Positions 6,947-46,357 of a DNA stretch of 64,000 nt are shown here, in pieces. Origin of the DNA: Cyanidioschyzon merolae (Eukaryota); assembly GCA_000091205.1 (NCBI GenBank), contig AP006498.2; one strand, written 5' to 3'. A program made the position numbers and the translations under genes. Position 1 is the stretch's first letter, and the number at the start of each line of letters is the position of its first letter. The notes below the pieces were generated by a model that did not search any database, was not told the DNA's origin, and saw nothing but the letters and a program-made list of their open reading frames with translations.

Positions 6947-8130
6947 GGGCCTGCTTGGCGCTTCAGTGGAGCTCAAAGGTTCCATGTGTTGCCACACAAA
7001 CTTCACTAGCAGTGGAAGCCAGTGCGATGTTCAAAACTAAAGATTGTTCGAAAACCAGCGCAATCGCACCGTTGCTTGTCCAACAAGCGTCCTCGTTCAC
7101 GAGTACTTGTGCCGAAAGAAACTTGGCTGCGGCCTTATCGGATACGGGACTCGCACCCGTCGCAAACACTCTAAGAGGGAGCAAGCCCTCGGTCGCGTAT
7201 GATCCCAGTTGGCTCTCACACCCGTGACCCTTTCTTGGTTCGAAGAGCGCCTCTCAGTCCCAAGAAAAACTCGATCGCCCGCGAAGCAGAACAAAAGCGC
7301 CTTGAAGCACTCTCCGAAGAACAAGGAGAGCGTCTCCTGAAACGTTTGCCGCAGGATTGATGCGCCGACGGGTGTAGGGTCGGCTAGAGGCCCCGGTTTG
7401 CACACGATCCCCAATGAGATAGGGACAGTTTGGTAAATCAGTGACTTTTGTTGTAGATTATATGACAAGAGCTTCGCACTGCGTACGCTGCGCACTGGAG
7501 CAGCAAGCGAACGCTGTCCATGGACCTCCAAGGTACACGTTTGGACGCAACGCGTTCGCCGGGTGTCGGCTTACCTGCTGGTTGGTGTGGTGCAGCAATG
7601 CCTAAGGAATTTGACAAGTACCGAGATATCGTTTCAAAAAAGATGGATCGGGTGAATTTCCGTGCCCATGCACTGCGCTGAGCTTCATGCCGTAGGACGG
7701 CTCCTGATCTGACGGTAAACGCATTCACGTGGCATGCGCTGAACGCCCATCGCGGTATTTATCTACTTTGACAAGGGTTTGCACAGGAATACACGAACCA
7801 ATAGCTGTGCAGGTGCAGATAATCATTTAGATATTAAACTTGATCCACTGTTTCACCCTTACTATTCATGGGTAGAGGTATCGGCAACTGCGAAAGCAAA
7901 AATAATCTTTTGCAAACAAGGTTTTGTCCTCTATATCATTCACACAGTCAGGGATAGCTGCTTTGCAGGCTGCAAGAGCAGCCTCAGGCTGACGGTCCTC
8001 CCTAGACTCTGCAGATATATACTCGCCAGGGTTGCTTAAGGCAGTTGTGGCAACCGCGCTTCCCCGTGAAGGCAGCACGTCCGTCCGATACAGGCGATAC
8101 ACCCAAGTCAGTGTAGGATACAACCGGTCC

Positions 8131-9672
8131 TCTGATGTGGGCGTACATTCTAAAGTTTCGCTCTCTGTAAACCATCATCCACAATAGCATTTGCAGGGTT
8201 TTTTCTAACTCGTTTCCCACGTAGAATCCACTGGTCTCGCCTGCTCCTCCAGCTTCGTTACCATCACTCGACGGATGTTGATGGCACCAAGATCGTGCCT
8301 GCTACGCTGGCTCAGGTTTCGTCAACGCTTTCCATGCAAAAGGCGCAGGGTATCATCTAAGCTCCGCTTACCATTCGGATCTCCTTCGCGCGCAACCTCG
8401 GTACACTCTTTACGGCGGTGGCACATCACTTCGGTCATGTTTTCAAGCACGTGCATCAACTCGCCGCCGCGGAAGGCTGCTCTATGGCGCGTTGACGCCT
8501 GCTTCATCGCTTGGTTCATGCTCTGGACGAGTGCAGAAGGCATCGCTTGATGCGCGCCCCCGTCTTGGTGCTCGGTGCAGTACCATACGAGCATCCGCCT
8601 CTTCTGGGCGATGCGCTCGGCGAGTACATTGTCCGTTGCACGCCCAAACGCAGGCGGCTCTATTGGATCGAGGATCTGTGAAACGTCAGCTTTTCCTTGA
8701 TGAACCTATTACCTTGCAGAGAATCGAGGCTCAAACACACGCCGAGAAATTTCGTTGCGTCTACACTCTCATCGGGCAAAACGGTGATACACGCCCCGCA
8801 GGAAGCGATCGCTGCGATGGCTCAAGTCCGAGTCCAAGAACCTGCTCGATCCCCAGAGAAGAGACGTGAGCCTCTGGGAGCAAATCCCATGTGAGAAATC
8901 ATGCTGCTGCCGAATGCCATTCCATTTATATCCATACAGATATCATGACAGATAATCCAACGACTAGGTGTGAATCCGTAAGCCGTTGTTGCCGCTGCAC
9001 TTCGAATGTCAAGGCTCTAGACCTGAAATAAGGTTTGGAAAATCTCCATGCAGGAACAGAGCCAGCATCCCAGTGTTCCCTGTTTCGAGCACATTCTATC
9101 GTCGCCTTTGGAGTATTCCGCTCGACAAGTGCTGGTGCCTTGTGAGCGGGCGCTGCTCGCCGCATTGGACACAGACACGCCTAGCGTTGCTTGCTGACGT
9201 CACTGCTTCTGCTGCTGCAACTTGCGAACCGGGCAGCTGGAAGTACGCAAACTCGCCAACGACGAGAGGCGCTCTAGTGTTGGAAGCTCCGTGCACTGCA
9301 GAGCGCGATTGTCGCTTGCTACCCAGAACGCTTTTTCGGTAGCTGCGACGGCAGTAGCAGCAGCTGCTACTTCTGCCAAAAACCGCCGCCGGTTCGCAGC
9401 CACGCCATCGTTGCTGTGAACGGGTGTCGCTTTCGAGGTTGCTCGTGAAACTTGGGTACCGTTGGAAGGCGCGGGGTCTTTGGCATTGGACCTCACTGGA
9501 AGTGAAACGCGTTCTGGGTGTCGATTACCTAAAAACAAGAGGCCCGGAACCAGAGGCGTCCCTGCGTATCGGCTGTACGCGACGGACGTCCGATACCAGG
9601 TTTCAGCGCTTATACGTAGCGGACGGAGGGGACGCGTCTCAAAAGTCTTCAACTCGAAAGGAGCATAGTTTC
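8131..9672 (+). repeat. Dispersed repeat family copy A (about 1.55 kb, unclassified; possibly a non-autonomous TE or fragment of a larger element)
   Basis: Near-identical (inverted) to 44615-46185 and partially to 31530-32340; duplicated six-frame ORFs (e.g. MTPASSLGSCSGRVQKASL..., MLVWYCTEHQDGGAHQA...) appear in all copies; no TIRs or LTR ends found. Confidence 0.7.
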
Positions 9673-9789
9673 GTTTCAAACAGAATTGGAAGAACAGCGC
9701 GCACATATTCTATCAGGTGTTAGGTTCTGTAGGTAGGTCTTGTCTGGCTGTTCCAGCAACAGACGATCGCTGGCATTCCGCTCGCGGAT

Positions 9790-12700
9790 ATGTACGCGGC
9801 GCTGCATCGAGTCACAGCAACGATTGAAGCTGTTGATCTTAGCCCGCTACACTTCGAAGCTCATGTGTCTAGCCCAGCTTCTATGAGTCGTAGAATGACT
9901 GCGTTGCTTCACTGGGGACCTTCTCCAGTGCTCTTTGCCTCTCCTTTTTACCAGGCTGGGGCTCGAAATCAGCGAGCAAACGCCACGAAAATCACTCGCT
10001 GGAGTATACGCTGTCGAAAATACGCTCGCTCTGAGGGCCTCGGTTTTCTAGCAATCACGCAACCAAAGACCAGCCTGGTACGAACGGCATCACACGCGGC
10101 TTACAACGCAAATCTATGGGCAGCAAGGAGATCCGGGCGAGTTTCTCCTCGAATGACGACAGGTTCTTCACCAGTGCTGTCGACTCGTCGTGCGGAACTT
10201 GTCTGCTCGCGCTACGTAGTCTTCTCTGATCTTCATGTCGATGCGAATCGGCTGGAGACGTGCTTGCAAGTTCTTGAGCGAGTTCATGAATTGGCCACTG
10301 CCAGAGATGCGGGCATCATATTTCTTGGCGATTTCTGGCATCTACGAGGAAGCATCCCAGTCATATGCCTCAATCGGGTCCTGGAGACGGTTCAGCAATT
10401 CACTGTACCATGCCTGATGCTTCCAGGTAATCACGACCAGGTAAGCATCTGCGGACGGGAACACGCGCTGGTCCCAGTGGCGGCAGCGATGCAGCCTGGT
10501 CTCGCGCTCGTGTTTGACGAACCTGTAGTGATGTTTGATGCGCTCTGGCTGCCGTATCGCAAGCGTCCGCTGCAACTAGTGGAAGCGCTGCGAGAACACG
10601 GACCCCATGTGAAAGCTGTCTTCTGTCATGCGGAGATTCAGGGCGCGTGGCTCAATAACCAGATGCGCTATGGAGGGCCCGGTGGTATCGCACCGGAGCT
10701 CTTCCCGCCTTCGCCAGTACCAACCTATGCGGGTCACTTTCATCGGCCCCATACGGTGACGGGCTATCCGCATATCCAGTATGTAGGCTCGCCCTATCAG
10801 GTCACGCGAGCTGAGGAAGGACAAGAGAAACATCTCCTTGTCGTGCGATCAACGGACTGGCTCACAGAGGAAATCGTGCCGCTAGCCATTGGACCTCGTT
10901 TCTTTCGCGTTTCATTGAAACAGGCTCGGCAACAACTAAGCGCTAGCATCCCTGCATCGGCGGCAGAAGCAACAACATCAGCGACAACGGGCTTTCGACC
11001 CGGTGATCGTGTTACGCTGCTCTGCACCGCATCCGAGCTGCAGCAACAGCGCACCGCCGGTGCCAAAGACATGGACCACGATTTGGAGTATGTCTATAAC
11101 GAACTACGTCGCAGAGGCATTCACGCAAGTATGCGCCTATGGGATGCACCAGCAGAAAATGAGAAAGTTTCATCGAGCAGCGCGCAACGCACCTTTGTTG
11201 AACCTCAGTTGCGAATGCCGAATGCGGAGCGCCTCGACGCTGCCGATGTGCTGCGCCTGTTTGCGCGCCAGCACCCGCAGCAGTTGGACGGAACGACGCT
11301 GGCGCTCGGACTTTCGATTTTAGAACAAATTCAAAAATCGAACGCAAAAATTGCTCGCGGGGAATCTTTTTCGCGCTTGCGTGCTGTGCATGTCCTCTTC
11401 GATTCTGTGCGACTCCATAATTTCGGCTGTTTCCATACTGAACCGGATAGCAACCAAGTAGATCAGCTGTCAATGGACGTAGCAGGGAGCACAAGGCATC
11501 AGATGAGCGTCACGAGTGCTTCGGAAGAATCGCACCAGGACCTCGAATCCAACGGTGGTGTCGTGAAGCGCGGGCGAGTGGCGGCGGCTACTGCTACGGC
11601 GGATGGAGCATGGCGTACGATCCCCGCGAAACCTGGTATCTGGTATCCGCTGCGCAATCGAGGGATCGTCCAAGTATCTGGACGCAATCTCGATGAAGAC
11701 GGTTGCAATTCGAATGGTACGGGAAAAACGACTTTGGCGATGGCAGCGCTATGGGCTCTAACAGGGAGCCTGGAACCGCGGCCTCATCTGCGACGTAACG
11801 TGTCGCAGTTGCGGATTCTGCACGAGGACGCTACGGAAGGTTTTGTTGAATTGCGAGCTAGCGTGAATGGAAAACCGCTTTTGGTGCGGAGGAAAGTTCG
11901 CCGCAGTGGGAAACAGCGGGAAAGATATAACCAGGAGCTTTTCGTGGAGTACGACTCCCGGGATCTCACACGCCTCAGCATCGAGGAAACACAACAGCGA
12001 CTGAATGAGATCATTGATCTCTCACTGTTGCCACATGTAGTCTTTTTTGGCCAGAATTATCTGCATGGCTTGCTCTCCACAACCGACAAGGAGTTTAAGG
12101 AGATTCTGGAGAGCGCCTTGCCGCTGCAAGTCTGGAACGAGGCCTATGCGCATGTCACTGCACGACAGCGAGCACTGCGTGAAGAACGCCAGCAACTTGC
12201 TCAAAAAATCCAGAGCTGTTCACAGGCGTTAGAGCGCGAGCGGGAACGAATCGAAGAGCTCGCTCGAACAGAGCGAGAAACAAGACTGCAACTCGATCTT
12301 CAAGAGCAGGAACTGAAGCAGAGTCTCGAGCAGTGGCAGCAAGGCGCAGCGGAAGCATCGGCCTCGGATACTATCGACAGCGGCAGCGACAACACGTCTC
12401 TCGAGGCGCTCCGCGAACGCATTCGTCACCTGAAAGCGAGCATCGATGCCGACGTGACCACTCTGGCGGAGCTGCAACGCAAGGAGGCGAAACTTCATGC
12501 GGAGCTTGCCCAGGCGCAGAGACTCTGGGATCAGTGGGCTGCGCTCCATGCGCAGCTCCAAGGCGATGCGGGAATAACCGTGTGCCAGGGCAGCCTCGAG
12601 CAACGCCGCACGGCTCTGCACGAACAAGTGAAAGACCTCAAACGAGTGTTGCAAGAGCTTCAGCTCCAGGAGCAGAGCACAGTTGCCAGCATACGCCACT

Positions 12701-14013
12701 TGGACCGGATGCTGCATTCGGAGCAACCTCCGGTGGCATCCAGCGCAGCAGATTGCGATGGAGCAGCAAAGCCGCAGCAAACACATTCGAAGACTTTCTG
12801 CGCCCTGTGTCTCCAACCAGTAGATGCTGCGTCGTATGCTGATCGTTTACAGGCCCTACAGACGGACCGCCAGCGTCTGGCAAGTGCGCTGGATGACCTC
12901 CGCGCACAGCGGCACGACAAGGACGCGGAAATCCAGATCATGGAGCGCGAACTCAGAGACACAGAAGCGGCATTCATGGAGCGGCATGCATTGGAGCAAC
13001 GCCTCGATGCAGTGGTGGCGTTGCGCCCCACACCCGAGCATTTGCATGAGCTTTCGCAAGCGAGCGATCGTTGCAGCATGGAGGCCGCACTTGTTATGCG
13101 CACGCTCGATACGAATCGCCAGCTTCTAGCCGAATATGAACAGCATCTGCTGCAGCAGCAAGAGCTGCGTTTGCACCAGGAACAACAGCGCGCGCGTTAC
13201 GACCGAGCCCTTCGAGCGTTGGACTGGACTCAACAGCAGCGACAGCGTCTACTCCAACCGATAGCTGCTGCGATCCTAGAGGCAACTGCGCACGTCGCGT
13301 CGCTACAGTCCACGTTAAACGAAGCGGTAGCGCATGAACGCACGCTTGTGGATACTGCGGATCGTCTGGAATTCCTTGCGCGCGCATTTCATCGCGGTGG
13401 CATACCGAGCCAGTTACTGGATCAGAGCCTGCAAGTCATCGAGACGCTTTGTGGTCATTACCTACGACATCTGAGCGATGATACGCTTTTACTGCGAATA
13501 CGTCGTCGCCGACAAGCGCAGCGTCCTCGGGAGCGGGAGCTTACCAAGGCTACCACGCGCGCAGAGAACGCACTCGAAGTACTTGTCTGGCAAGTCTACT
13601 GTCGAGACGCGCGCACAGGCACGTTCCGGGAACGAGAACTAGGCCTGCTCAGCGGCGGTCAGTTGCGACGAGTCAGTATTGCACTTTCCTTGGCCTTTGC
13701 CGAGTACATCTGTCATCAGCTGGGATATCGTAGTAATCTGCTGGTCTTGGACGAGGCTCTTCAACAGCTTGATCAAGAGGGTGCCCGTCGCTTAGCGTCA
13801 CTACTGCCGCAGCTGCAACGTGAGACGGTGCTGGTTATTGCCCACGAGAATGCCAGCTTTCTCGTGGACATCGCGGATGCGCATGATGTTGTGGAGCGTG
13901 CATCAGGGCGCAGCACGGTGCACTGTGATACCGGGTTTTTAGAGACAGAGCTCGCAGGCGACTCGTTTTCAGGGCGTTCAGAGCTCGTCCCGCAAGCGCA
14001 GGTCCGACGCTGA
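9790..14013 (+). CDS. SbcD/Mre11-like metallophosphoesterase fused to SbcC/Rad50-like SMC-type ABC ATPase (single 1407-aa polypeptide) with about 140-aa N-terminal extension (possible organellar targeting)
   Basis: Calcineurin-like phosphoesterase motifs in order: VVFSDLHVD, GDFWHLRG, LPGNHD, FCHAEIQG, GHFHRP. Then Walker A NSNGTGKTT, about 600 aa of heptad/coiled-coil sequence with a central CALC (CxxC zinc-hook-like) motif, ABC signature LSGGQLRRV, Walker B LLVLDEA, H-loop VIAHENAS. Confidence 0.7.
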   Translation: MYAALHRVTATIEAVDLSPLHFEAHVSSPASMSRRMTALLHWGPSPVLFASPFYQAGARNQRANATKITRWSIRCRKYARSEGLGFLAITQPKTSLVRTASHAAYNANLWAARRSGRVSPRMTTGSSPVLSTRRAELVCSRYVVFSDLHVDANRLETCLQVLERVHELATARDAGIIFLGDFWHLRGSIPVICLNRVLETVQQFTVPCLMLPGNHDQVSICGREHALVPVAAAMQPGLALVFDEPVVMFDALWLPYRKRPLQLVEALREHGPHVKAVFCHAEIQGAWLNNQMRYGGPGGIAPELFPPSPVPTYAGHFHRPHTVTGYPHIQYVGSPYQVTRAEEGQEKHLLVVRSTDWLTEEIVPLAIGPRFFRVSLKQARQQLSASIPASAAEATTSATTGFRPGDRVTLLCTASELQQQRTAGAKDMDHDLEYVYNELRRRGIHASMRLWDAPAENEKVSSSSAQRTFVEPQLRMPNAERLDAADVLRLFARQHPQQLDGTTLALGLSILEQIQKSNAKIARGESFSRLRAVHVLFDSVRLHNFGCFHTEPDSNQVDQLSMDVAGSTRHQMSVTSASEESHQDLESNGGVVKRGRVAAATATADGAWRTIPAKPGIWYPLRNRGIVQVSGRNLDEDGCNSNGTGKTTLAMAALWALTGSLEPRPHLRRNVSQLRILHEDATEGFVELRASVNGKPLLVRRKVRRSGKQRERYNQELFVEYDSRDLTRLSIEETQQRLNEIIDLSLLPHVVFFGQNYLHGLLSTTDKEFKEILESALPLQVWNEAYAHVTARQRALREERQQLAQKIQSCSQALERERERIEELARTERETRLQLDLQEQELKQSLEQWQQGAAEASASDTIDSGSDNTSLEALRERIRHLKASIDADVTTLAELQRKEAKLHAELAQAQRLWDQWAALHAQLQGDAGITVCQGSLEQRRTALHEQVKDLKRVLQELQLQEQSTVASIRHLDRMLHSEQPPVASSAADCDGAAKPQQTHSKTFCALCLQPVDAASYADRLQALQTDRQRLASALDDLRAQRHDKDAEIQIMERELRDTEAAFMERHALEQRLDAVVALRPTPEHLHELSQASDRCSMEAALVMRTLDTNRQLLAEYEQHLLQQQELRLHQEQQRARYDRALRALDWTQQQRQRLLQPIAAAILEATAHVASLQSTLNEAVAHERTLVDTADRLEFLARAFHRGGIPSQLLDQSLQVIETLCGHYLRHLSDDTLLLRIRRRRQAQRPRERELTKATTRAENALEVLVWQVYCRDARTGTFRERELGLLSGGQLRRVSIALSLAFAEYICHQLGYRSNLLVLDEALQQLDQEGARRLASLLPQLQRETVLVIAHENASFLVDIADAHDVVERASGRSTVHCDTGFLETELAGDSFSGRSELVPQAQVRR

Positions 14014-20139: not shown

Positions 20140-20215
20140 TCGCGGCGATGATGAAGATGGCAATGATGTTGATGATGATGGCAGTGATGATGGCAATGAT
20201 GATGTTAATGAACGA
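20140..20215. repeat. Imperfect (GAT/ATG)n microsatellite
   Basis: gatgatgaagatggcaatgatgttgatgatgatggcagtgatgatggcaatgatgatg. Confidence 0.6.
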
Positions 20216-22168
20216 TGTCGCGCATGTGGATGCTGTGGATACTGTGGACGGATGCTCTGATTTACGCATATTCGAGCAAAATAGCTTTGGTTTGCTTTCG
20301 TAGCTCGGATGTACACGCGAAAGTTTGGGATGCCTCCAAGTACGATCAACATTACCATTTTTCGGGCATTTTCAAGGACGGATTCCCTCGCCTCTCATCT
20401 ATGTTTGACTTAAAAAACGCTCGTCTGATCTCTGCCTCTAGTTCCGTAATTAGCATTAGAAAGGTGCTGATGCCAGCGTCCTAGTCAAGAGTTTTGCGTA
20501 AGTTCGTTGACAACGCATTGGATGCACAAGCAGATGTTGCTACCTGCGCCTCGCTTGCTATTTTCATCTGGTTCGTGTAGAGCCTCGGTGCGTGAGTCGC
20601 AGGGGCGACACTTGCTTGCGCACTGGCGTTCCCCCATGCCTACCACAACTCATCCGTCTTCGAGAGCCGCACTGTGGAGCGAAAAAGGCTCGCTTCTTCG
20701 TTTGGTACATTCCCTTGATGGATGCAGAAGGCGCCGCTCCATACCTACTCTGTTTCCGCACCCGATGCTGTAGCGTACGATCACAAGCTTCGCGTGGGTG
20801 ATCCCATCTGCTAATACGTTATTCAATGCGTACGTAAGCGAACGCTGCTCCATTCGATAAAGGATTCGTGGAACGTGACCTTGCGCGTCATGGAACAATT
20901 ACAGAAGTACAATTCACCTTGCAGAACAAGTCAAGACGTTTCGACTGCCTGAGGCCCCCATCATGGAAAGCGGTAGTGAATTCTCAAACAGAACGGTTGA
21001 GTCGATGACTGAAGCTCGAGTCCGAAACGCCTTTTCCGTGCCAACAGAAAAGGCGGGAGCTTCTTGGTGCGCATCCCATTACCGGTTTCATGCTGCATTC
21101 GATTGTCGTATCGTCGTTAGCAACGAATCGAGGAAAATTCTGGTTCCGAACGGAATCCGTCATTGCTGAGCGTGAGAGGTTGGACGAACATGCGTGACAA
21201 GTGTAAGCGCAGGTTGGCAAGAAAAGATGTCGAGTATTTATTCTCATCAATCCATCGGCTGGACTTGTTGCGCCTATGATTTGCCTTGAAACAGAGAGAT
21301 CAAAAATCTAAAGAAAGCATCTTTTCAGGATGCTGCCCACAAGGAAACGAGAAGAAGGGACGCTCTTGCGCATAAATTGAATATTTATGTCGGTTAGAAC
21401 ACGGACCCTGGTTCGATGGCTTCGTGAATCACTGTGAATCTCGTGACGAAACGATCTCCAGCGGTAAAAAGTCGAAAAAGCCATCCCGAAAGGACTGCCC
21501 AGAATCTTTAATCTACGCTTGAATCCCTAAGCTGTCGTTGCTGCACCAGAAATGCCGACACTGCGCATCTACAAACAAGTTAGGCAATGTTCGAAAGGTA
21601 GGAACGTGTCCAGTATTTCAGGTGTCCGGTTTCAGTCATGCACAGGTGTGGCGCGTGCGCAAACGGTACCGAAATTGCGGGAAACCGCTCTCGAGCGTAT
21701 GAATGCGATCCAGTCATTTTCTGGTTGGCGTTCTACAGCACCAGATGAGCGGGTTCGGTGCATCATATTCTGCCTCTGCAAGACAGAGCGCACCTCTTCT
21801 TCAGCTCCCGTGACGTTGCAAAATCAACAGGTTCTGGAAGGTTTCAGAGCATAAAGTTTGAATCGGAAGCTCGTCGATCACGCCCTGGGGCACTTACGTG
21901 TAGGTATCCCATGGAATGGCCGTTCAAGGTTTCTTCGAAGCGTCAGCCGCGATCAGTGTGTGCAGAACGCGTTTACAAGGCAACGCAGGTGATTGATGGG
22001 AGCAGCACCTATTCATCTCCGCGCATACTCATTGGAAGAAGTGCATGGATGTGTACCCCAATGGCTCCATCTCGAGGCTATGTCTAACATGCCAAAACTG
22101 CTCATCCAACCGCCAGAATAAACTTGGGCATGATGGTGCGCCCTGGCACTGCATGCTGGAAGATAGAT

Positions 22169-23788: not shown

Positions 23789-24989
23789 GGAGTCCGTTCA
23801 CACCCAGCGCTGGGTAGCTTAAGTCAACGAAGATTTGAATCACCTTTGCTGCGTGTATTCGAATGCTTATTCACAATGTACAGCTGGACGTTGAGATCAT
23901 GATGGTATGCACTGTATCGATCATCGACGAATTGCCGCTAGGATGTATTCTCTGGTAAATAGTGAAAGGAGGTCTACATTCTGCTTCGGGTCAGGCATAC
24001 AATAGTACTCAGATGGTTGAGTAACACAGAAAGAATCACGTAGATACGCTCCGTGCCGAAAACCGATTTGCTCGAAGCGCGCCTGCGGTTAATGGTATAA
24101 AAATGATCCGTTCATCATATTACGGAAAGCAAAAGCAACGATCCTAGCAACTACCAGTGTCTCTATTTCTCAATAGCTTGTTCGCGTTGTCCTGAAAACA
24201 CTGGTATACAATCGCATAAAAAGTCCTGGTTCACAAACGGCAATCTTCCGCCGAAATCTCAACGACAGCGTCCTTGGAAAGTCAATATCGATATGAAGCA
24301 CAGAGACGACGATTTGTTTTTTCAGTTAATGAGAGCTTCTTCAGACGAAACGGCCGGAGTGCGGATGGGTAGTCGCGGAGCGTGGCGTCCGTTGTATGCG
24401 CTATCGAACTCTTAGAGAACGAGTATATCATCATCGGTCTAGCTGTAGTGGAATCATTTAGCGGCCTCCAATTCGCGTATACAGAAGGCTCATACAACAG
24501 CGTTGACTTCGTCGAATCAATAAAGGTGTTGTCTCTGACGTCTGGCCACGACCTTCTACTAGACAACGTGGTAGTTCACATTTCCCCTTGCGTCGAGCTT
24601 TTGACGATTCTAATTAGGTAGAGCTGCTTTTGACTCCTCCGTTCTCTCCGCGTTTCAACTGCATCGCAGGAATGTCTTCTATCGTGAAACGAAATGATCG
24701 CTCTAGTGGGCCAATCGATGATGCGTTCAGCACACAGTGAAACACCCGGGCACATGACGTTGTTCTTCCGCCAGTCCTTCATCCTCCGGGAAGGTCCTCG
24801 CTTAAGGGTATCAAGCAGCGCGTTCATTTTTTGAAGAAACTAAAAATCCCAGGGATGAGCTGGGGTTTACTCATCAGAAGATCGAGATGGAGAAAAGCCA
24901 GCGAAGCGCTCCGGCGATAGAAGAGCACGGGGAGCTGATCGAGCAGCAAATGGCACAGACGGCACAAGTTCGAGGACTACTTGCATTGG

Positions 24990-25312
24990 TGGGTTCAACA
25001 ACGGCAAGAAACGCATGGAGTTTGTGAACCGAGACTTTAACGCCGCTATCGATATCAGGAGATGTGCGGTGCTGGAGACGAGACCTCCAGAATAGACAAG
25101 AGTGAACTTTGTTGGACAGCCTCCAAAAATTGAACTATATGAGAAATAATTGGAACCAGTAGCTCGTGGCCGGTCGAAAATGGCTGGGAGGCGTCTGCAC
25201 ATCAGCTGGAGACGCTGTGTCTAGGGCGCGGTTTCTCGCCAATACTGTGCACGGCCAACGGCGACGTTCGACTTCTGAGGCGAGTTTGGTAGTGGTGGTA
25301 TTATGTGGTGTT
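24990..25312 (+). mobile_element. Solo 3'-terminal fragment of the Fanzor/TnpB-type element (last about 30 codons plus conserved non-coding right end)
   Basis: Encodes ...[29 protein letters not shown]; the following about 220 bp align with 40650-40872 (gtggccggtc.aaaa..gctgggaggcgtctgcac...ggagacg.c.tgtctagggcg...gttcgactt...). Confidence 0.6.
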
Positions 25313-27099
25313 TCGTGACTGGACGGTGTGCTCCACTTTGGGGGGTTAACACAAACAGCACTTCGGTGACAGCTCGGTCTCGATGGAGGACGGCTGTCTG
25401 CGGCGGCCAGCAGCAGAGGTGCACAAGACGCACAAAGCTGGCATCGAGGCGTCCCTGCCGGGCTAGCGCTAGTGACCCGAACTTCTGGCGAGACGTGGCG
25501 CGCTCAGTGTCCGAGCAGGGCGAGCTGGCGACTTCGCGAGCTCCTGTGCGTCGAGAGCGACCTCCTCCGCAATGGGTGGCGCCGCCGCCCGGCTTTGAAC
25601 TCGATACGAGCGGCGAAAGCAGTTCGACTTGGGCTTCATGGCGCGCGGCGGCAGAGGCAGCGCAAGCCGAGCAAGAGGCGGTGCAAGAGCGGCTTGAGCG
25701 TGGCGAACCTGTGCGTGATATGACCGCTGAACGAAACTTCTGGCGGAGCGCAGCGGCTGAACTAGGCGCACCGTTGGACCCCGGCAGAACGGCAGCCGAG
25801 CTACGCACTGCAGCAGGCGGGTTGGCGGAGCGTCCTTCGGAGCATAATCGCAGCGAAGAGATTGGGAGCATCGATTCGAACATTCCTGAATCGGATGAGG
25901 AGTGGGACCCCGACACCTCCTGGATGCAAATGTATGCGTCAGACGCTGTTGAATTCGTTTCGGGAACCGAATCTGCTGATGATAATCTTCAAGGGACACT
26001 TTGGGGCGCCGCTCTGGGATCCGAGCAAGCAGCACGCGAACGTTCATCCACATCCTTGCAGTCGTTATCCGCAGAATGGGACACGAAGGAGCGCATTCCT
26101 GATTCCGGGGCAGAAGCTGCAGACGAGGAGGAAACCTTGGAGCCGCGCGATCCGAAGAAGGAGACAGCATTCTGGCGGGGTGCGGCCCAGGAGCTGCTTG
26201 GGGCATCCACGGGAGCTACGTCGGATGCGTTCGCGACTCGCTCGACCACGTCGCACAGCGCAGACGGGAGTGCCACGCAGGACTCCGAAGAGGAAACCTG
26301 GGAGCCGCGCGATCCGAAGAAGGAGACAGCATTCTGGCGGGGTGCGGCCCAGGAGCTGCTTGGGGCATCCACGGGAGCTACGTCGGATGCGTTCGCGACT
26401 CGCTCGACCACGTCGCACAGCGCAGACGGGAGTGCCACGCAGGACTCCGAAGAGGAAACCTGGGAGCCGCGCGATCCGAAGAAGGAGACAGCATTCTGGC
26501 GGGGTGCGGCCCAGGAGCTGCTTGGGGCATCCACGGGAGCTACGTCGGATGCGTTCGCGACTCGCTCGACCACGTCGCACAGCGCAGACGGGAGTGCCAC
26601 GCAGGACTCCGAAGAGGAAACCTGGGAGCCGCGCGATCCGAAGAAGGAGACAGCATTCTGGCGGGGTGCGGCTCAAGACATCATCGAGAGCCTTCCGACA
26701 CAAATCGAACTCGGTGTGGATGCACAGTCAAGCGCCAGCACTCCCGCCGTTCCCGATGCGCATGCCGGAACTGGTGATCCCGACGTTACAGCCGAAGAGC
26801 CCGTAGGCCCAGCTGAAGCCTGGGCTGCCTGGCGTGCCGCCCGAGCTTCTTCTAAGAACGTGTCCGCTTTACCCGCTCCTGTGGCTGAGACGCACCCAGA
26901 ACCTCTTTCTGAAACAGAGATCTGGATTCAGTGGCGAGAACAGCAAAGAAAAACCTGGGCAGGAGCCCTCAACGACCTGAACCGTAACCGTCCGCGAGAA
27001 CAGCAAGTTGCGCGACCCGAGAAAAGCACCGTTGATCGCTGGCGCCATGTTGCCGCAGAACTATCACAAGACAGCCCACAAAGCGAGGAGAACTCATAA
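25303..27099 (+). CDS. Repeat-containing acidic protein with reiterated FWR motifs; true start uncertain (first codons overlap the TE fragment end)
   Basis: 598-aa ORF; motifs NFWRDVA, NFWRSAAAELGAP, AFWRGAAQELLGAS x4, EAWAAWRAA, DRWRHVAAEL; contains 3.35 tandem copies of a 54-aa (162-bp) unit. Confidence 0.45.
   Translation: MWCFVTGRCAPLWGVNTNSTSVTARSRWRTAVCGGQQQRCTRRTKLASRRPCRASASDPNFWRDVARSVSEQGELATSRAPVRRERPPPQWVAPPPGFELDTSGESSSTWASWRAAAEAAQAEQEAVQERLERGEPVRDMTAERNFWRSAAAELGAPLDPGRTAAELRTAAGGLAERPSEHNRSEEIGSIDSNIPESDEEWDPDTSWMQMYASDAVEFVSGTESADDNLQGTLWGAALGSEQAARERSSTSLQSLSAEWDTKERIPDSGAEAADEEETLEPRDPKKETAFWRGAAQELLGASTGATSDAFATRSTTSHSADGSATQDSEEETWEPRDPKKETAFWRGAAQELLGASTGATSDAFATRSTTSHSADGSATQDSEEETWEPRDPKKETAFWRGAAQELLGASTGATSDAFATRSTTSHSADGSATQDSEEETWEPRDPKKETAFWRGAAQDIIESLPTQIELGVDAQSSASTPAVPDAHAGTGDPDVTAEEPVGPAEAWAAWRAARASSKNVSALPAPVAETHPEPLSETEIWIQWREQQRKTWAGALNDLNRNRPREQQVARPEKSTVDRWRHVAAELSQDSPQSEENS
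26125..26670 (+). repeat. 162-bp tandem repeat x3.35 (in-frame, inside CDS); copies 2-4 identical
   Basis: Unit starts at 26125, 26287, 26449 and 26611 (gaagaggaaacctgggagccgcgcgatccgaagaaggagacagcattctggcgg...). Confidence 0.85.
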
Positions 27100-30714: not shown

Positions 30715-31529
30715 GCGCAGTTTTCCGCTATTGAAACCCCGGAGTACGCTTTAGACGAAACAGGCTTGAGAAATTGAGTTTCCACTCGCAATGCGTACAG
30801 CGCAGTCCAGATCAGGCTTTCCTACTGGGCAGCTGCCTGGCACTATACATGCAGCAGGAAGCTATGCCAAAAACGTTCTATGAGGCTACTTTCCGCGCTG
30901 GCGCGGTGTCGAGGCGGTGTCCAGCTGTCCGTAATATTCCTAGTTGTACTGTTTTCATCGGAGCCGCTGCTTGGCCTGAGCCACGCTAATGTCAGAAAAA
31001 TCGTACACCGACTATTCACTATGTTCCTAACTTTCATATTTTCCAGCTTTTTCGGAGTTGAAGACTATCAACATTCCAAGTGCAGCATCCAAGACTTGCC
31101 CACTCAAGCGTCGTTTCGGGTTTTCGGTCGTCTTTTCCGAGTGGTTGCCTCGAAGCTTCGCCGCTAGTATTCAAGACAACACCGGAATCAAGTTGATCCG
31201 CCATGCCCACGGTCAAGGTTTCTTAGAATTACAGGACCCATAACCCAATATATACATGCATGCTTCCAATTCTCTCCTTTTCTAACGTGCAGCATGCTCA
31301 AAGCACGCGTTCTCCGAGTTTTCGATCTTTCTTTCTCAAGTTGAACGGTGAAGACACCAACTCGTGTCGCTTGATGTATAAGCGAAATGAATCGACATTG
31401 TCCCTTGACGCTCTGTTCACAAGCACATCCAAAAAGTTAATTCAAATTATTTTCTCAAACAATCAATTCCGTTCGAAAGAAACATCCTTCTTCCGACGTG
31501 GGTATCGACGTAATCGCATTCCACAAAAG

Positions 31530-32340
31530 TATGATTTCTCACATGGGATTTGCTCCCAGAGGCTCACGTCTCTTCTCTGGGGATCGAGCAGGTTCTTGGA
31601 CTCGGACTTGAGCCATCGCAGCGATCGCTTCCTGCGGGGCGTGTATCACCGTTTTGCCCGATGAGAGTGTAGACGCAACGAAATTTCTCGGCGTGTGTTT
31701 GAGCCTCGATTCTCTGCAAGGTAATAGGTTCATCAAGGAAAAGCTGACGTTTCACATATCCTCGATCCAATAGAGCCGCCTGCGTTTGGGCGTGCAACGG
31801 ACAATGTACTCGCCGAGCGCATCGCCCAGAAGAGGCGGATGCTCGTATGGTACTGCACCGAGCACCAAGACGGGGGCGCGCATCAAGCGATGCCTTCTGC
31901 ACTCGTCCAGAGCATGAACCAAGCGATGAAGCAGGCGTCAACGCGCCATAGAGCAGCCTTCCGCGGCGGCGAGTTGATGCACGTGCTTGAAAACATGACC
32001 GAAGTGATGTGCCACCGCCGTAAAGGGTGTACCGAGGTTGCGCGCGAAGGAGATCCGAATGGTAAGCGGAGCTTAGATGATACCCTGCGCCTTTTGCATG
32101 GAAAGCGTTGACGAAGCCTGAACCAGCGTAGCAGGCACGATCTTGGTGCCATCAACATCTGTCGAGTGATGGTGACGAAGCTGGAGGAGCAGGCGAGACC
32201 AGTGGATTCTACGTGGGAAACGAGTTAGAAAAAACCCTGCAAATGCTATTGTGGATAATGGGTTACAGAGAGCGAAACTTTAGAATGTACGCCCTTGCTG
32301 GATGGCCCGTTCCATTTGATGCTGACATAGGTGTAAGCTG
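31530..32340 (-). repeat. Dispersed repeat family copy B (truncated, about 0.8 kb)
   Basis: Aligns to 8131-8900 of copy A in inverted orientation; shares the 30-bp terminal extension (ttgctggatggcccgt.ccatttgatgc) with copy C. Confidence 0.7.
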
Positions 32341-37222: not shown

Positions 37223-37499
37223 GACACCCCCAAGTCTTTGACCTCGCTGGTACGAGCGGCTCGAGCCGGTTCAACTGTTCGCCCCCTAGAGCCCAGACGC
37301 CACTAACAGTTCGGCTCCTGGTGGTAAAAGATTGCTTGACTTTGCTGAGCCCCGAACAGCACTGTATCTCCCAACAGCGCAGTAGATAGCTCGCATAAGA
37401 ACGGGTATGTGTCGTTGGAGCGCAAGTGCGTCCAAGGTTTCATTTGGTGTCCGGTTCGCCATCGTCGCACCTGCGCTGCAGTACTCTGGCGCTTGCAGT

Positions 37500-37731
37500 G
37501 CATTTGAAAACGGTACATTGAGCATTGGAGTTGCCCTAGATCAGTGCACTCTTGGGCACAGAGCAGGGACACGCTTCGACTGCGGCTCGTGTTCCATGTG
37601 GATGCAGCGCATTTGAAAACGGTACATTGAACACTGGAGTTGCCCTAGATCAGTGCACTCTTGGGCACAGAGCAGGGACACGCTTCGACTGCGGCTCGTG
37701 TTCCATGTGGATGCAGTGCATTTGAAAACGT
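37500..37731. repeat. 109-bp tandem duplication (2 copies plus 13-bp partial), non-coding, about 97% identical
   Basis: Unit gcatttgaaaacggtacattga.ca.tggagttgccctagatcagtgcactcttgggcacagagcagggacacgcttcgactgcggctcgtgttccatgtggatgcag starts at 37500, 37609 and 37718. Confidence 0.85.
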
Positions 37732-38586
37732 TTCCAATGTATTCTCGAGCGGCGGAGCTCGTCGTGTTGGGATCGTTCCCAACGGCTCGGGGCTCGATGC
37801 AGTCGTTGGAAAGCGTGACGTTCGTGCACGCGTCCGCACCGAAACTGAAAATAGGGATGACCTAAACGAAAATTGACGCTCTCTCATGTAATCCAAATTC
37901 GGAGCTGAATTCAAAGACCAGAACCGAATGCTTCTGAACCAGCAGCTACAGGGCATTGGAGGAAACGCACATTCGAGCGACGCACAAGAACCCCGGACAC
38001 AACCCCGTTCGCCGCGATCCACGTATGATCCGTACCCCAGTTCGAACGGATGCCCTATGTGGTACGGCAACGCCGTTCTGTCTCCGTGACGCAACTGTAC
38101 CGAAGGTAAAGACGCTATTGCGGATGACTAGGGCAGGCATTAGGTGTGCGATAGAACGCATGAAACGACCAGAAAATCCGAGAAGAAGTTTCGGTAATGT
38201 GACTTGGGAGTAGGGTGTTTGATGGATACTTCAAAGCGCACTGAAAAACAAATAAAAAAGAAAGAAAAGAAAAAGCGCACAGTCGGAGAACGCTGGCCTA
38301 AGTAAACGTCTTGTCAATGAAAAAAGAATCCCGCTCGGTGAGCGCATCAGGGAGATCGGGCAGTCAACTGACAAGACGCGCATGTCGCCGTTGAAGAGAA
38401 AAGCGATCCTGATCAGGTGCGTGTTCTACCGGAACAAGTTGGATTTCCGTTGGAGTTTTACAAAAAAGCAGTTTTTCATTTCATTTGTGCTTCAAACCTC
38501 AAACAAGTCTAGTCCAGAGTTTTTTCGCAGTATATAACAAAAGCGTTCGAAGAGCGTTCTTTTTCGAAAAAATAAAAAGGAAAGCT

Positions 38587-40649: not shown

Positions 40650-40872
40650 ACAAGAGGGTATCTTGTTGGACAATCACTCAAGGTGGAACCATATGAGAAA
40701 AAGATGGAAGCAGTAGTAGGTGGCCGGTCCAAAAAGACTGGGAGGCGTCTGCACCTCGGTTGGAGACGTCTTGTCTAGGGCGGCTCGGTCGCCACTACTG
40801 TACACCGCTGCCGTCGTTCGACTTAGAACGGCGTTTGTTGTTGGTGTGTGTGTAATCGGTTGTTTGAAAGGC
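40560..40872 (+). ncRNA. Candidate omega-RNA (guide RNA scaffold) region at the 3' end of the Fanzor ORF and right end of the element
   Basis: By analogy with TnpB/Fanzor loci, where the omega-RNA overlaps the ORF 3' end and runs to the right end. This segment is the part conserved in the otherwise non-coding solo fragment at 25.0-25.3k. Confidence 0.3.
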
Positions 40873-43838: not shown

Positions 43839-44528
43839 TTATAAACTGAAGAAACCCATGCCGTTACATTCGCGGCAAGGCCGCCCAAGCCCAGTGCCTT
43901 GGCACGGATAGCACGGTACCTCGTCGCCCAGGAAACCTTTCATTTTGCAGGAGCCGTTGCACATGAGACAAACGCTCCGGCGCTTACCGTGGCAGGCACC
44001 ACACTGGATCACTGGCCCGTACTGTTTCCGAAGCTGGCGACGCAATCTTTGTCGAAGAGTCGCTGCCGCTGGATCCGCGGCCGAATTCACTAGAAACCGA
44101 ATTGCTTCGCGAACTTCCTCTGGTGACAGGTACCCAGGTTCTTTGGATGCATCTCGACCGAAACCTTTTGCGGCCTGCATCCGCAACAGCGGCCTCGCGC
44201 GGCTGAAGCGCACGCCACAGGCTCCTTGTAGTCTGCTCCGTTGCATGCGCCCAGCGGTGCTGCAGTATCTGCTTTGTAGACATGTGCATACGGGCTCCAT
44301 GAACTGAAGAACAACCGAACAGCGGAATGTGGAGCCCAGCCTCGGAGAAGGTTCCATGTTTGGATGATAAACAAAAAGCTCCTGTGTTGACATTTTGGCG
44401 CACGAGTGATACCTGGGAATGAATCGACCCAGGTGGCTTCGAACGAGTTTCCTCTGGTCCGAAGAACCGTTCTCTAGTTTCTCACGTGCCACAGTATCAG
44501 TCTTCAAGGAAAGTTTCGATTCAATCAA
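43839..44528 (-). CDS. DnaJ-like zinc-finger protein (four CxxCxGxG repeats; BSD2/PSA2/LQY1-like plastid assembly-factor type); start uncertain
   Basis: C-terminus CGACHGKR...CLMCNGSC...CYPCQGTG...CRECNGMG; upstream part basic, with no other domain. Confidence 0.5.
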   Translation of the reverse strand: MIESKLSLKTDTVAREKLENGSSDQRKLVRSHLGRFIPRYHSCAKMSTQELFVYHPNMEPSPRLGSTFRCSVVLQFMEPVCTCLQSRYCSTAGRMQRSRLQGACGVRFSRARPLLRMQAAKGFGRDASKEPGYLSPEEVREAIRFLVNSAADPAAATLRQRLRRQLRKQYGPVIQCGACHGKRRSVCLMCNGSCKMKGFLGDEVPCYPCQGTGLGRPCRECNGMGFFSL

Positions 44529-44614
44529 GGGGGCAAAGCGGCCTGGGATGCGTACTCCCGTAAAACGAGAAAAACAAGGTAGTCGCTCAGTTCTGTCTAG
44601 CAGGGAACGGAACG

Positions 44615-46185
44615 TTAAATCTATGCTCCTTTCGAGTAGAAGACTTTTGAGACGCGTCCCCTCCGTCCGCTACGTATAAGCGCTGAAAACTGGTATCGGA
44701 CGTCCGTCGCGTACAGCCGATACGCAGGGACGCCTCTGGTTCCGGGCCTCTTGTTTTTAGGTAATCGACACCCAGAACGCGTTTCACTTCCAGTGAGGTC
44801 CAATGCCAAAGACCCCGCGCCTTCCAACGGTACCCAAGTTTCACGAGCAACCTCGAAAGCGACACCCGTTCACAGCAACGATGGCGTGGCTGCGAACCGG
44901 CGGCGGTTTTTGGCAGAAGTAGCAGCTGCTGCTACTGCCGTCGCAGCTACCGAAAAAGCGTTCTGGGTGGCAAGCGACAATCGCGCTCTGCAGTGCACGG
45001 AGCTTCCAACACTAGAGCGCCTCTCGTCGTTGGCGAGTTTGCGTACTTCCAGCTGCCCGGTTCGCAAGTTGCAGCAGCAGAAGCAGTGACGTCAGCAAGC
45101 AACGCTAGGCGTGTCTGTGTCCAATGCGGCGAGCAGCGCCTGCTCGCAAGGCACCAGCACTTGTCGAGCGGAATACTCCAAAGGCGACGATAGAATGTGC
45201 TCGAAACAGGGAACACTGGGATGCTGGTTCTGTTCCTGCATGGAGATTTTCCAAACCTTATTTCAGGTCTAGAGCCTTGACATTCGAAGTGCAGCAGCAA
45301 CAACGGCTTACGGATTCACACCTAGTCGTTGGATTATCTGTCATGATATCTGTATGGATATAAATGGAATGGCATTCGGCAGCAGCATGATTTCTCACAT
45401 GGGATTTGCTCCCAGAGGCTCACGTCTCTTCTCTGGGGATCGAGCAGGTTCTTGGACTCGGACTTGAGCCATCGCAGCGATCGTTTCCTGCGGGGGCGTG
45501 TATCACCGTTTTGCCCGATGAGAGTGTAGACGCAACGAAATTTCTCGGCGTGTGTTTGAGCCTCGATTCTCTGCAAGGTAATAGGTTCATCAAGGAAAAG
45601 CTGACGTTTCACAGATCCTCGATCCAATAGAGCCGCCTGCGTTTGGGCGTGCAACGGACAATGTACTCGCCGAGCGTATCGCCCAGAAGAGGCGGATGCT
45701 CGTATGGTACTGCACCGAGCACCAAGACGGGGGCGCGCATCAAGCGATGCCTTCTGCACTCGTCCAGAGCATGAACCAAGCGATGAAGCAGGCGTCAACG
45801 CGCCATAGAGCAGCCTTCCGCGGCGGCGAGTTGATGCACGTGCTTGAAAACATGACCGAAGTGATGTGCCACCGCCGTAGAGGGTGTACCGAGGTTGCGC
45901 GCGAAGGAGATCCGAATGGTAAGCGGAGCTTAGATGATACCCTGCGCCTTTTGCATGGAAAGCGTTGACGAAACCTGAGCCAGCGTAGCAGGCACGATCT
46001 TGGTGCCATCAACATCTGTCGAGTGATGGTGACGAAGCTGGAGGAGCAGGCGAGACCAGTGGATTCTACGTGGGAAACGAGTTAGAAAAAACCCTGCAAA
46101 TGCTATTGTGGATAATGGGTTACAGAGAGCGAAACTTTAGAATGTACGCCCTTGCTGGATGGCCCGTACCATTTGATGCCGTCTT
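44615..46185 (-). repeat. Dispersed repeat family copy C (full length, inverted relative to copy A)
   Basis: Reverse-complement alignment with 8131-9672 over about 1.55 kb at high identity; same duplicated ORFs (44587..45303, 45334..45798, 45696..45968, 45740..46015). Confidence 0.75.
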
Positions 46186-46357
46186 CGATGTATGATCAGC
46201 ACAAGGATTCGCAGCGTTTGCAAAATCGAATTCGATTCAATAAAGTCTTTTCTTTATCCGTCTCGATTACGGGCTCTTCACCAGTCGACCGGAACAAGTC
46301 GAGAACCTCAGTTTTCAAGAAAGTTGCCCTCACTTGCGCCCACGAATGCTGATTTAA

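What the first reader, a model, noticed from the sequence alone, without database searches (positions are those of the whole stretch)
8131..9672. Unclassified 1.55-kb dispersed repeat present three times in 64 kb
The copies lie at 8131-9672 (+), 44615-46185 (-, plus 30 extra terminal bp) and 31530-32340 (-, a truncated half), and are nearly identical. I found no terminal inverted repeats, no LTR-like TG...CA ends and no recognisable transposase, RT or integrase motifs. All copies are intergenic.

Each copy carries the same pair of overlapping antisense ORFs, about 125 and 90 aa (for example ...ERIAQKRRMLVWYCTEHQDGGAHQAMPSALVQ...HRRKECTEVAREGDPNGKR). The repeat could be a non-autonomous element, part of a larger mobile element, or a local segmental duplication carrying an unknown small gene.
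Basis: seen in the sequence. Interest (0 to 1): 0.5.

Follow-up and report, generated by a model that had tools for sequence, protein, structure and literature searches.

The report
Decayed Fanzor transposon relics, red alga

Summary
The window is Cyanidioschyzon merolae 10D chromosome 16. The repeat is confirmed: A 8098-9671 (-), B 44618-46192 (+) and C 30818-32336 (+, near-identical only from about 31500). I also found a fourth, old copy, D, at about 20302-21694 (-), 62% identical.

- An exhaustive HMMER search found 31 relatives.
- The intact relatives carry the full D...[TS][TS]xxC4...RD motif.
- Their profile matches the published C. merolae Fanzor1 protein CMe-1 (E 1e-16).
- Their predicted fold matches the solved SpuFz Fanzor (E 1e-10).

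The window copies have lost the N-terminal two-thirds and key residues, so they are pseudogene relics.

They do not match the published CMe-1A consensus. That consensus matches a different repeat in the window, at 38354-40813. The finding is therefore a second Fanzor1-derived family, dispersed at least to chromosome 20.

Family copies are usually 62-65% alike. The 97-99% identity of A, B and part of C, with old diverged termini and mosaic structure, points to copy-to-copy recombination rather than clean transposition. This last step is inferred.

Verdict: ordinary in kind, a new member of a known kind, of moderate interest.

The parts
8098..9671 (-). Copy A of the element (AB-type, 1574 bp). 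8139-9671 is 98.9% identical to B. 8098-8138 is an old, diverged 3' terminus.
8211..8741 (-). Copy A: remnant of the C-terminal third of a Fanzor1/TnpB-like gene (RuvC-II region, degenerate zinc finger, RuvC-III 'HDLGAINI' after an in-frame TGA).
   Evidence: Profile of intact relatives, built without window sequences: 8651-8394, E 2e-14. Family profile: 8741-8211, E 4e-58. tblastn with P0324: 39% identity, E 2e-11. Codon-usage rank 8 of 202 ORFs.
9251..9671 (-). 5' segment of 421 bp specific to copies A and B, with no homologue in copies C, D or E. It holds most of the spurious 168-aa ORF.
44618..46192 (+). Copy B (AB-type, 1575 bp). The Fanzor remnant is at 45549-46079. The last 41 bp (46152-46192) are shared with C at 82%.
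30818..32336 (+). Copy C, a mosaic. 30818-31498 is old (about 68% identical to A/B, 60% to D/E) and includes a segment of about 375 bp (31130-31530) that A and B lack. About 31500-32294 is 97% identical to A/B. The terminal 41 bp are 32295-32336. The Fanzor remnant is at 31692-32222.
20302..21694 (-). Copy D, an old full-length family member, 62% identical to C (1341 aligned bp) and to A 8143-8916. The Fanzor remnant is at 20353-20901, with stops in all frames.

Best explanation
The repeat is a set of decayed, non-autonomous copies of a Fanzor1-type transposable element family in the nuclear genome of Cyanidioschyzon merolae.

**Anatomy (shown)**
- Each copy keeps about 320-740 bp of non-coding 5' sequence.
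- It then keeps the last roughly 180 codons of a Fanzor gene, the eukaryotic TnpB homologue and an omega-RNA-guided RuvC nuclease.
- It ends with about 135-180 bp of 3' sequence at a common terminus.
- The N-terminal two-thirds of the gene, including the RuvC-I aspartate, are absent.
- The retained part has an in-frame stop and has lost zinc ligands and the RD motif. No copy can make a nuclease.
- No copy encodes a transposase.

**Family (shown)**
- The family is old: independent copies are 60-65% identical.
- It is dispersed: four copies on chromosome 16 in this window, one on chromosome 20, and many more implied.
- It lacks TIRs and TSDs, as does the known C. merolae Fanzor1 element CMe-1A.
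- It is a different family from CMe-1A.

**Origin of the near-identity (inferred)**
- The 97-99% identity of A, B and the 3' half of C most likely comes from recent copy-to-copy transfer of sequence between linked copies lying within 38 kb. The process would be ectopic gene conversion or recombinational repair.
- I put this at about 55%, against about 25% for a young subfamily that transposed recently.

**Present state (inferred)**
- The copies now behave as inert intergenic DNA.
For: **Organism**
- Exact protein matches to C. merolae 10D chromosome 16 genes.

**Homology to Fanzor**
- Exhaustive phmmer of the 127-aa frame against 1.84 billion proteins gave 31 hits, the best at E 4e-9 and 30-40% identity over nearly the whole query.
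- Intact relatives (692-863 aa) have invariant D433, T611-T612-x-x-C615-x-x-C618, C688-x-x-C691 and R703-D704. This is the Bao & Jurka motif D-X(125,275)-[TS][TS]-X-X-C4-X(5,50)-RD (PMC3627910).
- Weak or precomputed Pfam PF07282 Cas12f1-like_TNB matches.
- The profile of intact relatives matches the published CMe-1 Fanzor1 protein at E 1e-16, collinear through IETDG, DPG, YGxGR and NRDFNAAINI.
- The AF2 model of P0322 (pLDDT 72.7) matches SpuFz Fanzor 9cez/8gkh at E 1.5e-10 to 7.6e-10, then PpFz and GtFz, then Cas12f.
- The same profile hits A, C and B at E about 1e-12 to 1e-14 and D at 6e-5. It gives no N-terminal hits.

**Old family and dispersal**
- D versus C: 62% identity, z = 102.
- Chromosome 20 copy E: 63-65% identity, with the same 3' end.

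**Not CMe-1A**
- The published 3169-bp consensus matches 38354-40813 (86%) and other fragments, but none of A to D.

**Recombination**
- C is collinear with D and E along its whole length but 97% identical to A/B only in one block.
- A keeps an old terminus: 23/45 matches to C and 17/34 to E, the same level as B against E.
- The homogenised tract stops at the same base in A, B and C.
- There is no TSD.
- Variants do not cluster by locus across strains.
Against: **Against gene conversion**
- Gene conversion between sequences only 60-68% identical outside the tract is mechanistically awkward.
- A and B share an identical 5' boundary and a 421-bp segment with no homologue in C, D or E.
- A further near-identical AB-type copy with a different 3' junction exists in a metagenome (L001).
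- These three points fit a young mobile subfamily at least as well.

**Limits of the evidence**
- The cross-strain haplotype sharing comes from short-read metagenome assemblies, which can mix repeat copies.
- I could not search the whole C. merolae genome, so copy number and ends genome-wide are not measured.
- I found no evidence for a surviving omega-RNA: fold z = +0.72 and the covariation term was unfavourable.
- The family may already have a Repbase or Dfam entry under another name. I could not check this.
Confidence: 0.72

Rival explanations
1. A young, still-mobile non-autonomous subfamily (AB-type: 421-bp 5' module, the 375-bp deletion, and the 3' block) transposed recently to loci A, B and at least one more. 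It would have been mobilised in trans by an unidentified transposase or autonomous partner. Copy C and A's odd terminus would be secondary recombinants.
For: - A and B have the same 5' end and 98.9% identity over 1534 bp with unrelated flanks.
- A further near-identical copy with another junction exists in L001.
- The AB-specific 5' module is absent from old copies.
- Bao & Jurka note that some C. merolae Fanzor1 elements stay intact for a long time.
Against: - There is no TSD and there are no defined terminal repeats.
- A lacks the young version of the last 41 bp and instead has an old family terminus.
- C shows in-place replacement of a homologous block, not insertion.
- All three copies are fixed at the same loci in every strain sampled.
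- No intact gene of this lineage was found among annotated C. merolae proteins.
Confidence: 0.23
2. The repeat carries a functional small gene, a protein of 90-127 aa kept alike in its copies by concerted evolution.
For: - The 127-codon frame has gene-like codon usage: LLR 0.12-0.14, ranks 8-13 of 202 ORFs of 100 codons or more.
- The frame is open in A, B and C.
Against: - The codon bias is explained by descent from a Fanzor gene.
- The frame covers only an internal fragment of the RuvC domain.
- Homology continues through the TGA stop.
- At least three of the six variable sites within the frame are non-synonymous (Q/H, K/R, E/G) and one is synonymous.
- D has stops in this frame, and D versus C shows no coding constraint in any frame.
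- It is not annotated in 10D.
Confidence: 0.03
3. Assembly artefact, or a simple local segmental duplication.
For: Three copies lie within 38 kb.
Against: - The flanks are unrelated.
- The copies lie in both orientations.
- Independent assemblies from several metagenomes reproduce each copy at its locus, including contigs that span B and C completely.
- Family members occur on another chromosome.
Confidence: 0.02

Closest known systems
CMe-1A, the Fanzor1-bearing element of C. merolae (Bao & Jurka 2013, Mob DNA 4:12; PMC3627910). [quoted passage not shown] 2007 (PMC1955436).
   Same: - Same host.
- Both carry a Fanzor1-type gene or its remains.
- Both lack TIRs and recognisable TSDs.
- Both are old and diverged: CMe-1A copies are about 80% identical to their consensus, which implies about 64% pairwise; this family shows 60-65%.
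- Both are intergenic and of unknown transposon class.
   Different: - There is no DNA similarity to the 3169-bp CMe-1A consensus, nor to its 5' 635 bp, which corresponds to TE-N2_CMe.
- Intact relatives of this family are only about 24-27% identical to the CMe-1 protein.
- The copies here keep only the C-terminal third of the gene.
- Bao & Jurka list a single Fanzor1 family for C. merolae.
Spizellomyces punctatus Fanzor1 (SpuFz1; PDB 8GKH, 9CEZ), an omega-RNA-guided DNA endonuclease
   Same: - The predicted fold of intact relatives matches over about 720 columns (E 1e-10, TM 0.56-0.58 normalised to the target).
- Same RuvC D-E-D plus zinc-finger layout.
   Different: - About 15% sequence identity.
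- The window copies are fragments without RuvC-I and with damaged zinc-finger and RuvC-III motifs.
- No omega-RNA could be shown.
Bacterial IS200/IS605 and IS607 TnpB, and their non-autonomous derivatives that keep only the 3' end
   Same: - TnpB-type nuclease gene at the 3' side of the element.
- Derivatives retain the 3' end of the gene and the right end of the element.
   Different: - No TnpA (Y1 or serine recombinase) is found here.
- No subterminal hairpins or TAM-linked insertion site could be shown.
- The host is eukaryotic.

Membership tests
Fanzor/TnpB protein family (motif of Bao & Jurka 2013) | Statistically supported sequence homology to accepted Fanzor1 proteins | tested here: met
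   - The window frame matches the family of 31 relatives.
- A profile of intact relatives, built without window sequences, hits A, C and B at E 1e-12 to 1e-14 and D at 6e-5.
- The same profile matches the published CMe-1 protein at E 1e-16.
Fanzor/TnpB protein family (motif of Bao & Jurka 2013) | RuvC-I aspartate 125-275 residues upstream of the [TS][TS] motif | tested here: not met
   It is present in intact relatives (D433 in GLDPGR). No N-terminal part of the gene (profile positions 1-538) is detectable in any window copy.
Fanzor/TnpB protein family (motif of Bao & Jurka 2013) | [TS][TS]-x-x-C4 zinc finger | tested here: not met
   - Relatives have TTQKCHRC...CEHC.
- The window copies read MTEVMCHRRKEC...LRLLHGKR*. 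The second [TS] and at least three of the four cysteines are lost.
Fanzor/TnpB protein family (motif of Bao & Jurka 2013) | RD of RuvC-III (RDxNAAxNI) | tested here: not met
   The window reads RSRHDLGAINI after an in-frame TGA. R is replaced by H, and NAA by GA. It is recognisable only as a relic, with a weak profile hit at 8309-8229.
Fanzor/TnpB protein family (motif of Bao & Jurka 2013) | Fanzor/TnpB fold (WED-REC-RuvC-TNB) | tested here: met
   This was tested on an intact relative, not on the window fragment. P0322 model against PDB: SpuFz E 1.5e-10, PpFz 1e-8, GtFz 4.5e-5, then Cas12f.
Fanzor/TnpB systems | Omega-RNA encoded at the 3' end of the gene and the right end of the element | tested here: inconclusive
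   - A conserved common 3' terminus exists in A, B, C, D and E.
- There is no excess folding stability (z = +0.72).
- The RNAalifold covariation term is unfavourable, with only three independent lineages.
- There is no Rfam match.
CMe-1A / TE-N2_CMe (Repbase families of C. merolae) | DNA similarity to the published consensus | tested here: not met
   blastn with word size 7 and tblastx of the 3169-bp consensus (taken from the paper's supplement) against the window gave hits at 38354-40813, 38042-38214, 24855-25268 and 60761-61995. There were none in A, B, C or D.
Interspersed repetitive element of Nozaki et al. 2007 (253 copies, average 3.2 kb, WSV486-like ORF) | Truncated ORF weakly similar to WSSV wsv486; size about 3.2 kb | not testable with these tools
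- By inference that element is CMe-1A: a 3169-bp consensus, and WSSV carries the Fanzor1 SWv-1.
- It is unknown whether the 253 copies also counted this family.
Helitron | 5'-TC, 3'-CTRR with a subterminal hairpin, insertion between A and T | tested here: not met
   The ends read CTATGCTCC... and ...CCATTTGATGC(C/T)G(T/A)C. There is no GC-rich subterminal hairpin.
TIR DNA transposons (MULE, Mariner, hAT and others) and LTR elements | Terminal inverted or long terminal repeats plus target-site duplication | tested here: not met
   No terminal inverted or direct repeats were found. The only flanking 15-mer pair lies 39-103 bp outside the shared boundaries.
Non-LTR retrotransposons | RT or endonuclease ORF, poly(A) or simple-repeat 3' end, 5' truncation series | tested here: not met
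   There is no Pfam hit in six frames at E of 1 or less. There is no poly(A) at either end.

The most novel reading that the evidence does not exclude
The sharp-edged, near-identical tracts shared by otherwise 60-68% identical copies, all stopping at the same base 41 bp from the element's 3' terminus, might be footprints of nuclease-stimulated homing or gene conversion. In this reading a still-active Fanzor of this lineage in C. merolae, or brought in by a virus, cuts near the element's right end. The break is then repaired from another copy. This would be a eukaryotic counterpart of TnpB-driven transposon retention. A weaker form of the reading is that an intact, thermo-acidophile-adapted autonomous partner of this second Fanzor1 lineage still exists in Cyanidiales or in their large DNA viruses.
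Probability: 0.07. Interest if true: 0.8.

Novelty: new member of a known kind. Interest (0 to 1): 0.35.

Why it matters
**Annotation**
- The result turns an 'unclassified repeat with an unknown ORF' into an annotated relic of a Fanzor1 element.
- It shows that the very small, repeat-poor C. merolae genome holds at least two unrelated Fanzor1-derived repeat families, where the literature lists one.

**Practical use**
- These relics explain why assemblies of C. merolae-type genomes break here.
- Their ORFs should not be annotated as genes.
- The intact relatives recovered from hot-spring metagenomes are candidate thermo-acidophile Fanzor nucleases.

**Biology**
- The mosaic copies offer a small natural case for studying recombination between dispersed repeats in a genome that lacks DNA methylation and H3K9-type silencing.

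Tried and rejected
- **Known RNA genes.** rRNA, tRNA and other known RNA were rejected. There are no Rfam hits at gathering threshold or at E of 1 or less, and no tRNAs.
- **Spliced gene.** A multi-exon gene with a GT-AG intron at 8669-8706 was rejected. The upstream exon frame has a stop six codons before the donor and no ATG. C_10D has lost the AG. C. merolae has almost no introns.
- **Pfam.** Pfam on single ORFs and on all six full-frame translations gave nothing.
- **First word-indexed protein search.** It found only one near-identical metagenome ORF. The exhaustive search was needed.
- **PDB sequence searches.** Searches with P0252 and with the family profile gave nothing. Fold comparison was needed.
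- **Viral contigs.** The scan gave no relatives.
- **Presence/absence polymorphism.** None was found among strains. All carry A, B and C.
- **Cyanidiococcus yangmingshanensis.** The syntenic region shows no detectable element, and the intergenic region at the D site is much shorter (918 versus 2112 bp). At this divergence the absence of similarity is not decisive.
- **Chromosome position.** The 10D chromosome record itself could not be fetched. Gene numbering (CMP346C-CMP351C here, CMP358C known) only suggests a position towards one chromosome end.
- **15-bp direct repeat.** The pair flanking B (44515-44529 and 46231-46245) was rejected as a TSD. It lies outside the boundaries shared with A and C.
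- **Omega-RNA.** No support was found.

Full report
**Where we are**

Ten ORFs of the window were looked up by exact sequence. Six match annotated proteins of Cyanidioschyzon merolae 10D on the 908,485-bp record, which is chromosome 16 (genes near CMP346C-CMP351C). Examples are valyl-tRNA ligase BAM81928 and the phytoene-dehydrogenase-like BAM81926. Pfam confirms ordinary eukaryotic housekeeping neighbours. The genome is intron-poor and about 55% GC.

**The observation**

The repeat is real.
- A 8139-9671 and B 44618-46151 are 98.9% identical over 1534 bp, in opposite orientation.
- C 31499-32335 is about 97% identical to the corresponding part of A and B.
- The flanks are unrelated.
- B and C share 41 more bp at one end. 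A has a diverged in-register version of these 41 bp: 23/45 matches to C, p = 3e-4.
- There are no rRNA, tRNA or Rfam matches.
- There are no TIRs, LTRs or TSDs.
- Metagenome contigs from strains about 99% identical to 10D carry A, B and C at the same loci. Some contigs end inside the repeat and others span B and C completely. This rules out an assembly artefact. It also shows no presence/absence polymorphism.

**More copies and a mosaic**

Translated and sensitive nucleotide comparison revealed a fourth, old copy, D, at about 20302-21694.
- D is 62% identical to C over 1341 aligned bases (z = 102 against shuffles) and to A 8143-8916.
- The D alignment runs on into what looked like C's unique flank, down to 30909. 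A's other half (8947-9250) is 68% identical to C 31129-30818.
- C is therefore a complete old copy in which one block, about 31500-32294, has become 97% identical to A and B.
- C, D and a fifth copy E share a segment of about 375 bp that A and B lack.
- A and B carry a 421-bp 5' segment (A 9251-9671) with no counterpart in C, D or E.

**What the ORF is**

- D versus C shows no coding constraint in any frame.
- The 168-aa ORF is spurious.
It ranks 8 of 202 ORFs of 100 codons or more.
- A word-indexed search found only a near-identical metagenome ORF.
- An exhaustive phmmer against 1.84 billion representatives found 31 relatives. The best has E 4e-9, with 30-40% identity over almost the whole frame.
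- Most relatives are short, decayed ORFs from hot-spring metagenomes. A few are long.
- The long ones read GLDPGR ... GYGTGRGNGGGHKGE ... TTQKCHRC ... CEHC ... RNRDFNAAINIL.
- A profile search returned 680-860-aa intact members. In their alignment D433, T611, T612, C615, C618, C688, C691, R703 and D704 are invariant or nearly so.
- This is the TnpB/Fanzor signature D-X(125,275)-[TS][TS]-X-X-C4-X(5,50)-RD of Bao & Jurka 2013.
- Pfam gives sub-threshold or precomputed PF07282 Cas12f1-like_TNB.
- An AlphaFold model of P0322 (pLDDT 72.7) matches the solved Spizellomyces Fanzor at E 1.5e-10. It then matches Parasitella and Guillardia Fanzors, and then Cas12f.

**Anatomy of the window copies**

- A profile built only from intact relatives hits A 8651-8394, C 31782-32033 and B 45639-45887 (E 1e-12 to 1e-14), and D 20862-20581 (6e-5).
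- There is a faint RuvC-III match, in the same frame, beyond the TGA stop.
- Nothing corresponds to the N-terminal roughly 540 residues.
- The retained segment reads MTEVMCHRRKEC ... HGKR* ... RHDLGAINI. Zinc ligands and the RD are gone.
- The copies are therefore pseudogene relics: a 5' non-coding part, then the last third of a Fanzor gene, then about 135-180 bp to a common 3' terminus.
- I found no support for a surviving omega-RNA.

**Relation to what is published**

- Nozaki et al. [quoted passage not shown]
- Bao & Jurka 2013 list one Fanzor1 family for C. merolae, CMe-1A. It has a 3169-bp consensus and about 150 copies roughly 80% identical to the consensus. It has no TIRs, its TSDs are undetermined and its class is unknown. 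They also list TE-N2_CMe, and a Fanzor1 in WSSV.
- I took the CMe-1A consensus from their supplement and compared it with the window. It matches 38354-40813 (86% over 2479 bp), 38042-38214, 24855-25268 and pieces at 60761-61995. This is the other diverged repeat family I had noticed.
- The consensus does not match A, B, C or D.
- The CMe-1 protein aligns with the profile of our family's intact relatives at E 1e-16, but only about 24-27% identity.
- The finding therefore belongs to a second Fanzor1-derived family.
- Whether Repbase or Dfam already names it could not be checked.

**Dispersal**

- One decayed relative (P0214) lies on contigs from the same C. merolae-type metagenomes, between orthologues of BAM83182 and BAM83184. 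These are on the 1,621,617-bp chromosome 20.
- That copy, E, is 63-65% identical to B, C and D and ends at the same 3' position.
- About 29 further representatives, each under 50% identical to the others, imply dozens of old copies.

**Why A, B and part of C are nearly identical**

Family copies normally differ by 35-40%.

Evidence for recombination rather than clean transposition:
- C shows in-place replacement of one homologous block.
- A keeps an old terminus. It matches E at 17/34 positions, against 19/34 for B versus E.
- The homogenised tract stops at ...GAATGTACGCCC in all three copies.
- There is no TSD.
- Variants do not sort by locus across strains. Metagenome assembly may blur this last point.

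Evidence against:
- Conversion between such diverged partners is awkward.
- A and B share an exact 5' boundary and a private 5' module.
- L001 shows another near-identical copy with a different junction.

I put recombination at about 0.55 and a young mobile subfamily at about 0.25. A whole-genome search would decide between them.

**Verdict**

The object is an ordinary kind of thing, a dead transposon relic. It is a previously unlisted Fanzor1-derived family in this genome, with an unexplained pattern of homogenisation.

Noticed in passing
window 38354-40813 (+), with 38042-38214 (-); fragments 24855-25268, 60747-60985, 61121-61290, 61922-61995: A nearly full-length but frame-shifted copy of the published Fanzor1 element CMe-1A. 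It is 86% identical to the consensus, and CMe-1 protein residues 2-734 are recovered at 70-89% identity over several frames. Several 3' and 5' fragments are also present. The window therefore holds two unrelated Fanzor1-derived repeat families.
   Followed up: yes
L001 (JGI 3300050390, Ga0506603_040748), positions 1219-1285: A further AB-type copy, 98.5% identical to A and B. It diverges at the position equivalent to A 8226 into sequence not present in the window. It is either another genomic copy or a chimeric contig. Its ORF reads through the TGA as TGG.
   Followed up: partly
L032 (JGI 3300028372, Ga0306901_1000170), gene 8001-10139: An intact 712-aa Fanzor relative sits in a compact 32.7-kb contig (GC 56%). 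Its neighbours are a 2625-aa Peptidase_S74 protein, a 2OG-Fe(II) oxygenase, an ATG8 homologue and a UvrD-type helicase. Whether the source is a Cyanidiales nucleus or a large DNA virus is unresolved.
   Followed up: partly
L027 (Cyanidiococcus yangmingshanensis JANCYV010000003.1, 27170-49941): The syntenic gene order (ValRS, phytoene-DH-like, RPN1, SbcCD-like) is conserved. The intergenic regions are much shorter, for example 918 versus 2112 bp at the site of copy D. No element is detectable.
   Followed up: partly
window 26124-26672: A 162-bp tandem repeat of 3.4 copies, 99% identical, inside the 598-aa ORF 25303-27099. That ORF starts directly after a CMe-1A 3' fragment.
   Followed up: no
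window 37494-37730: A 109-bp tandem repeat of 2.2 copies, 96% identical, in an intergenic region upstream of the CMe-1A copy.
   Followed up: no
window 9790-14013 (+): A 1407-aa gene annotated 'similar to desmoplakin' combines an N-terminal calcineurin-like phosphoesterase (Metallophos) with SMC_N, AAA_23 and SbcC Walker B domains. This is an SbcD-SbcC (Mre11-Rad50-like) fusion. JGI calls its orthologues the SbcCD nuclease and ATPase subunits.
   Followed up: no
window copies A, B, C versus loci L003-L013, L021-L022: Short-read metagenome contigs of C. merolae-type strains end systematically inside these repeats. One 23-kb contig ends in A at one end and in C at the other.
   Followed up: yes
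window 20144-20248: A short ATG/GAT-rich microsatellite-like array lies between the RPN1 start and the end of copy D.
   Followed up: no
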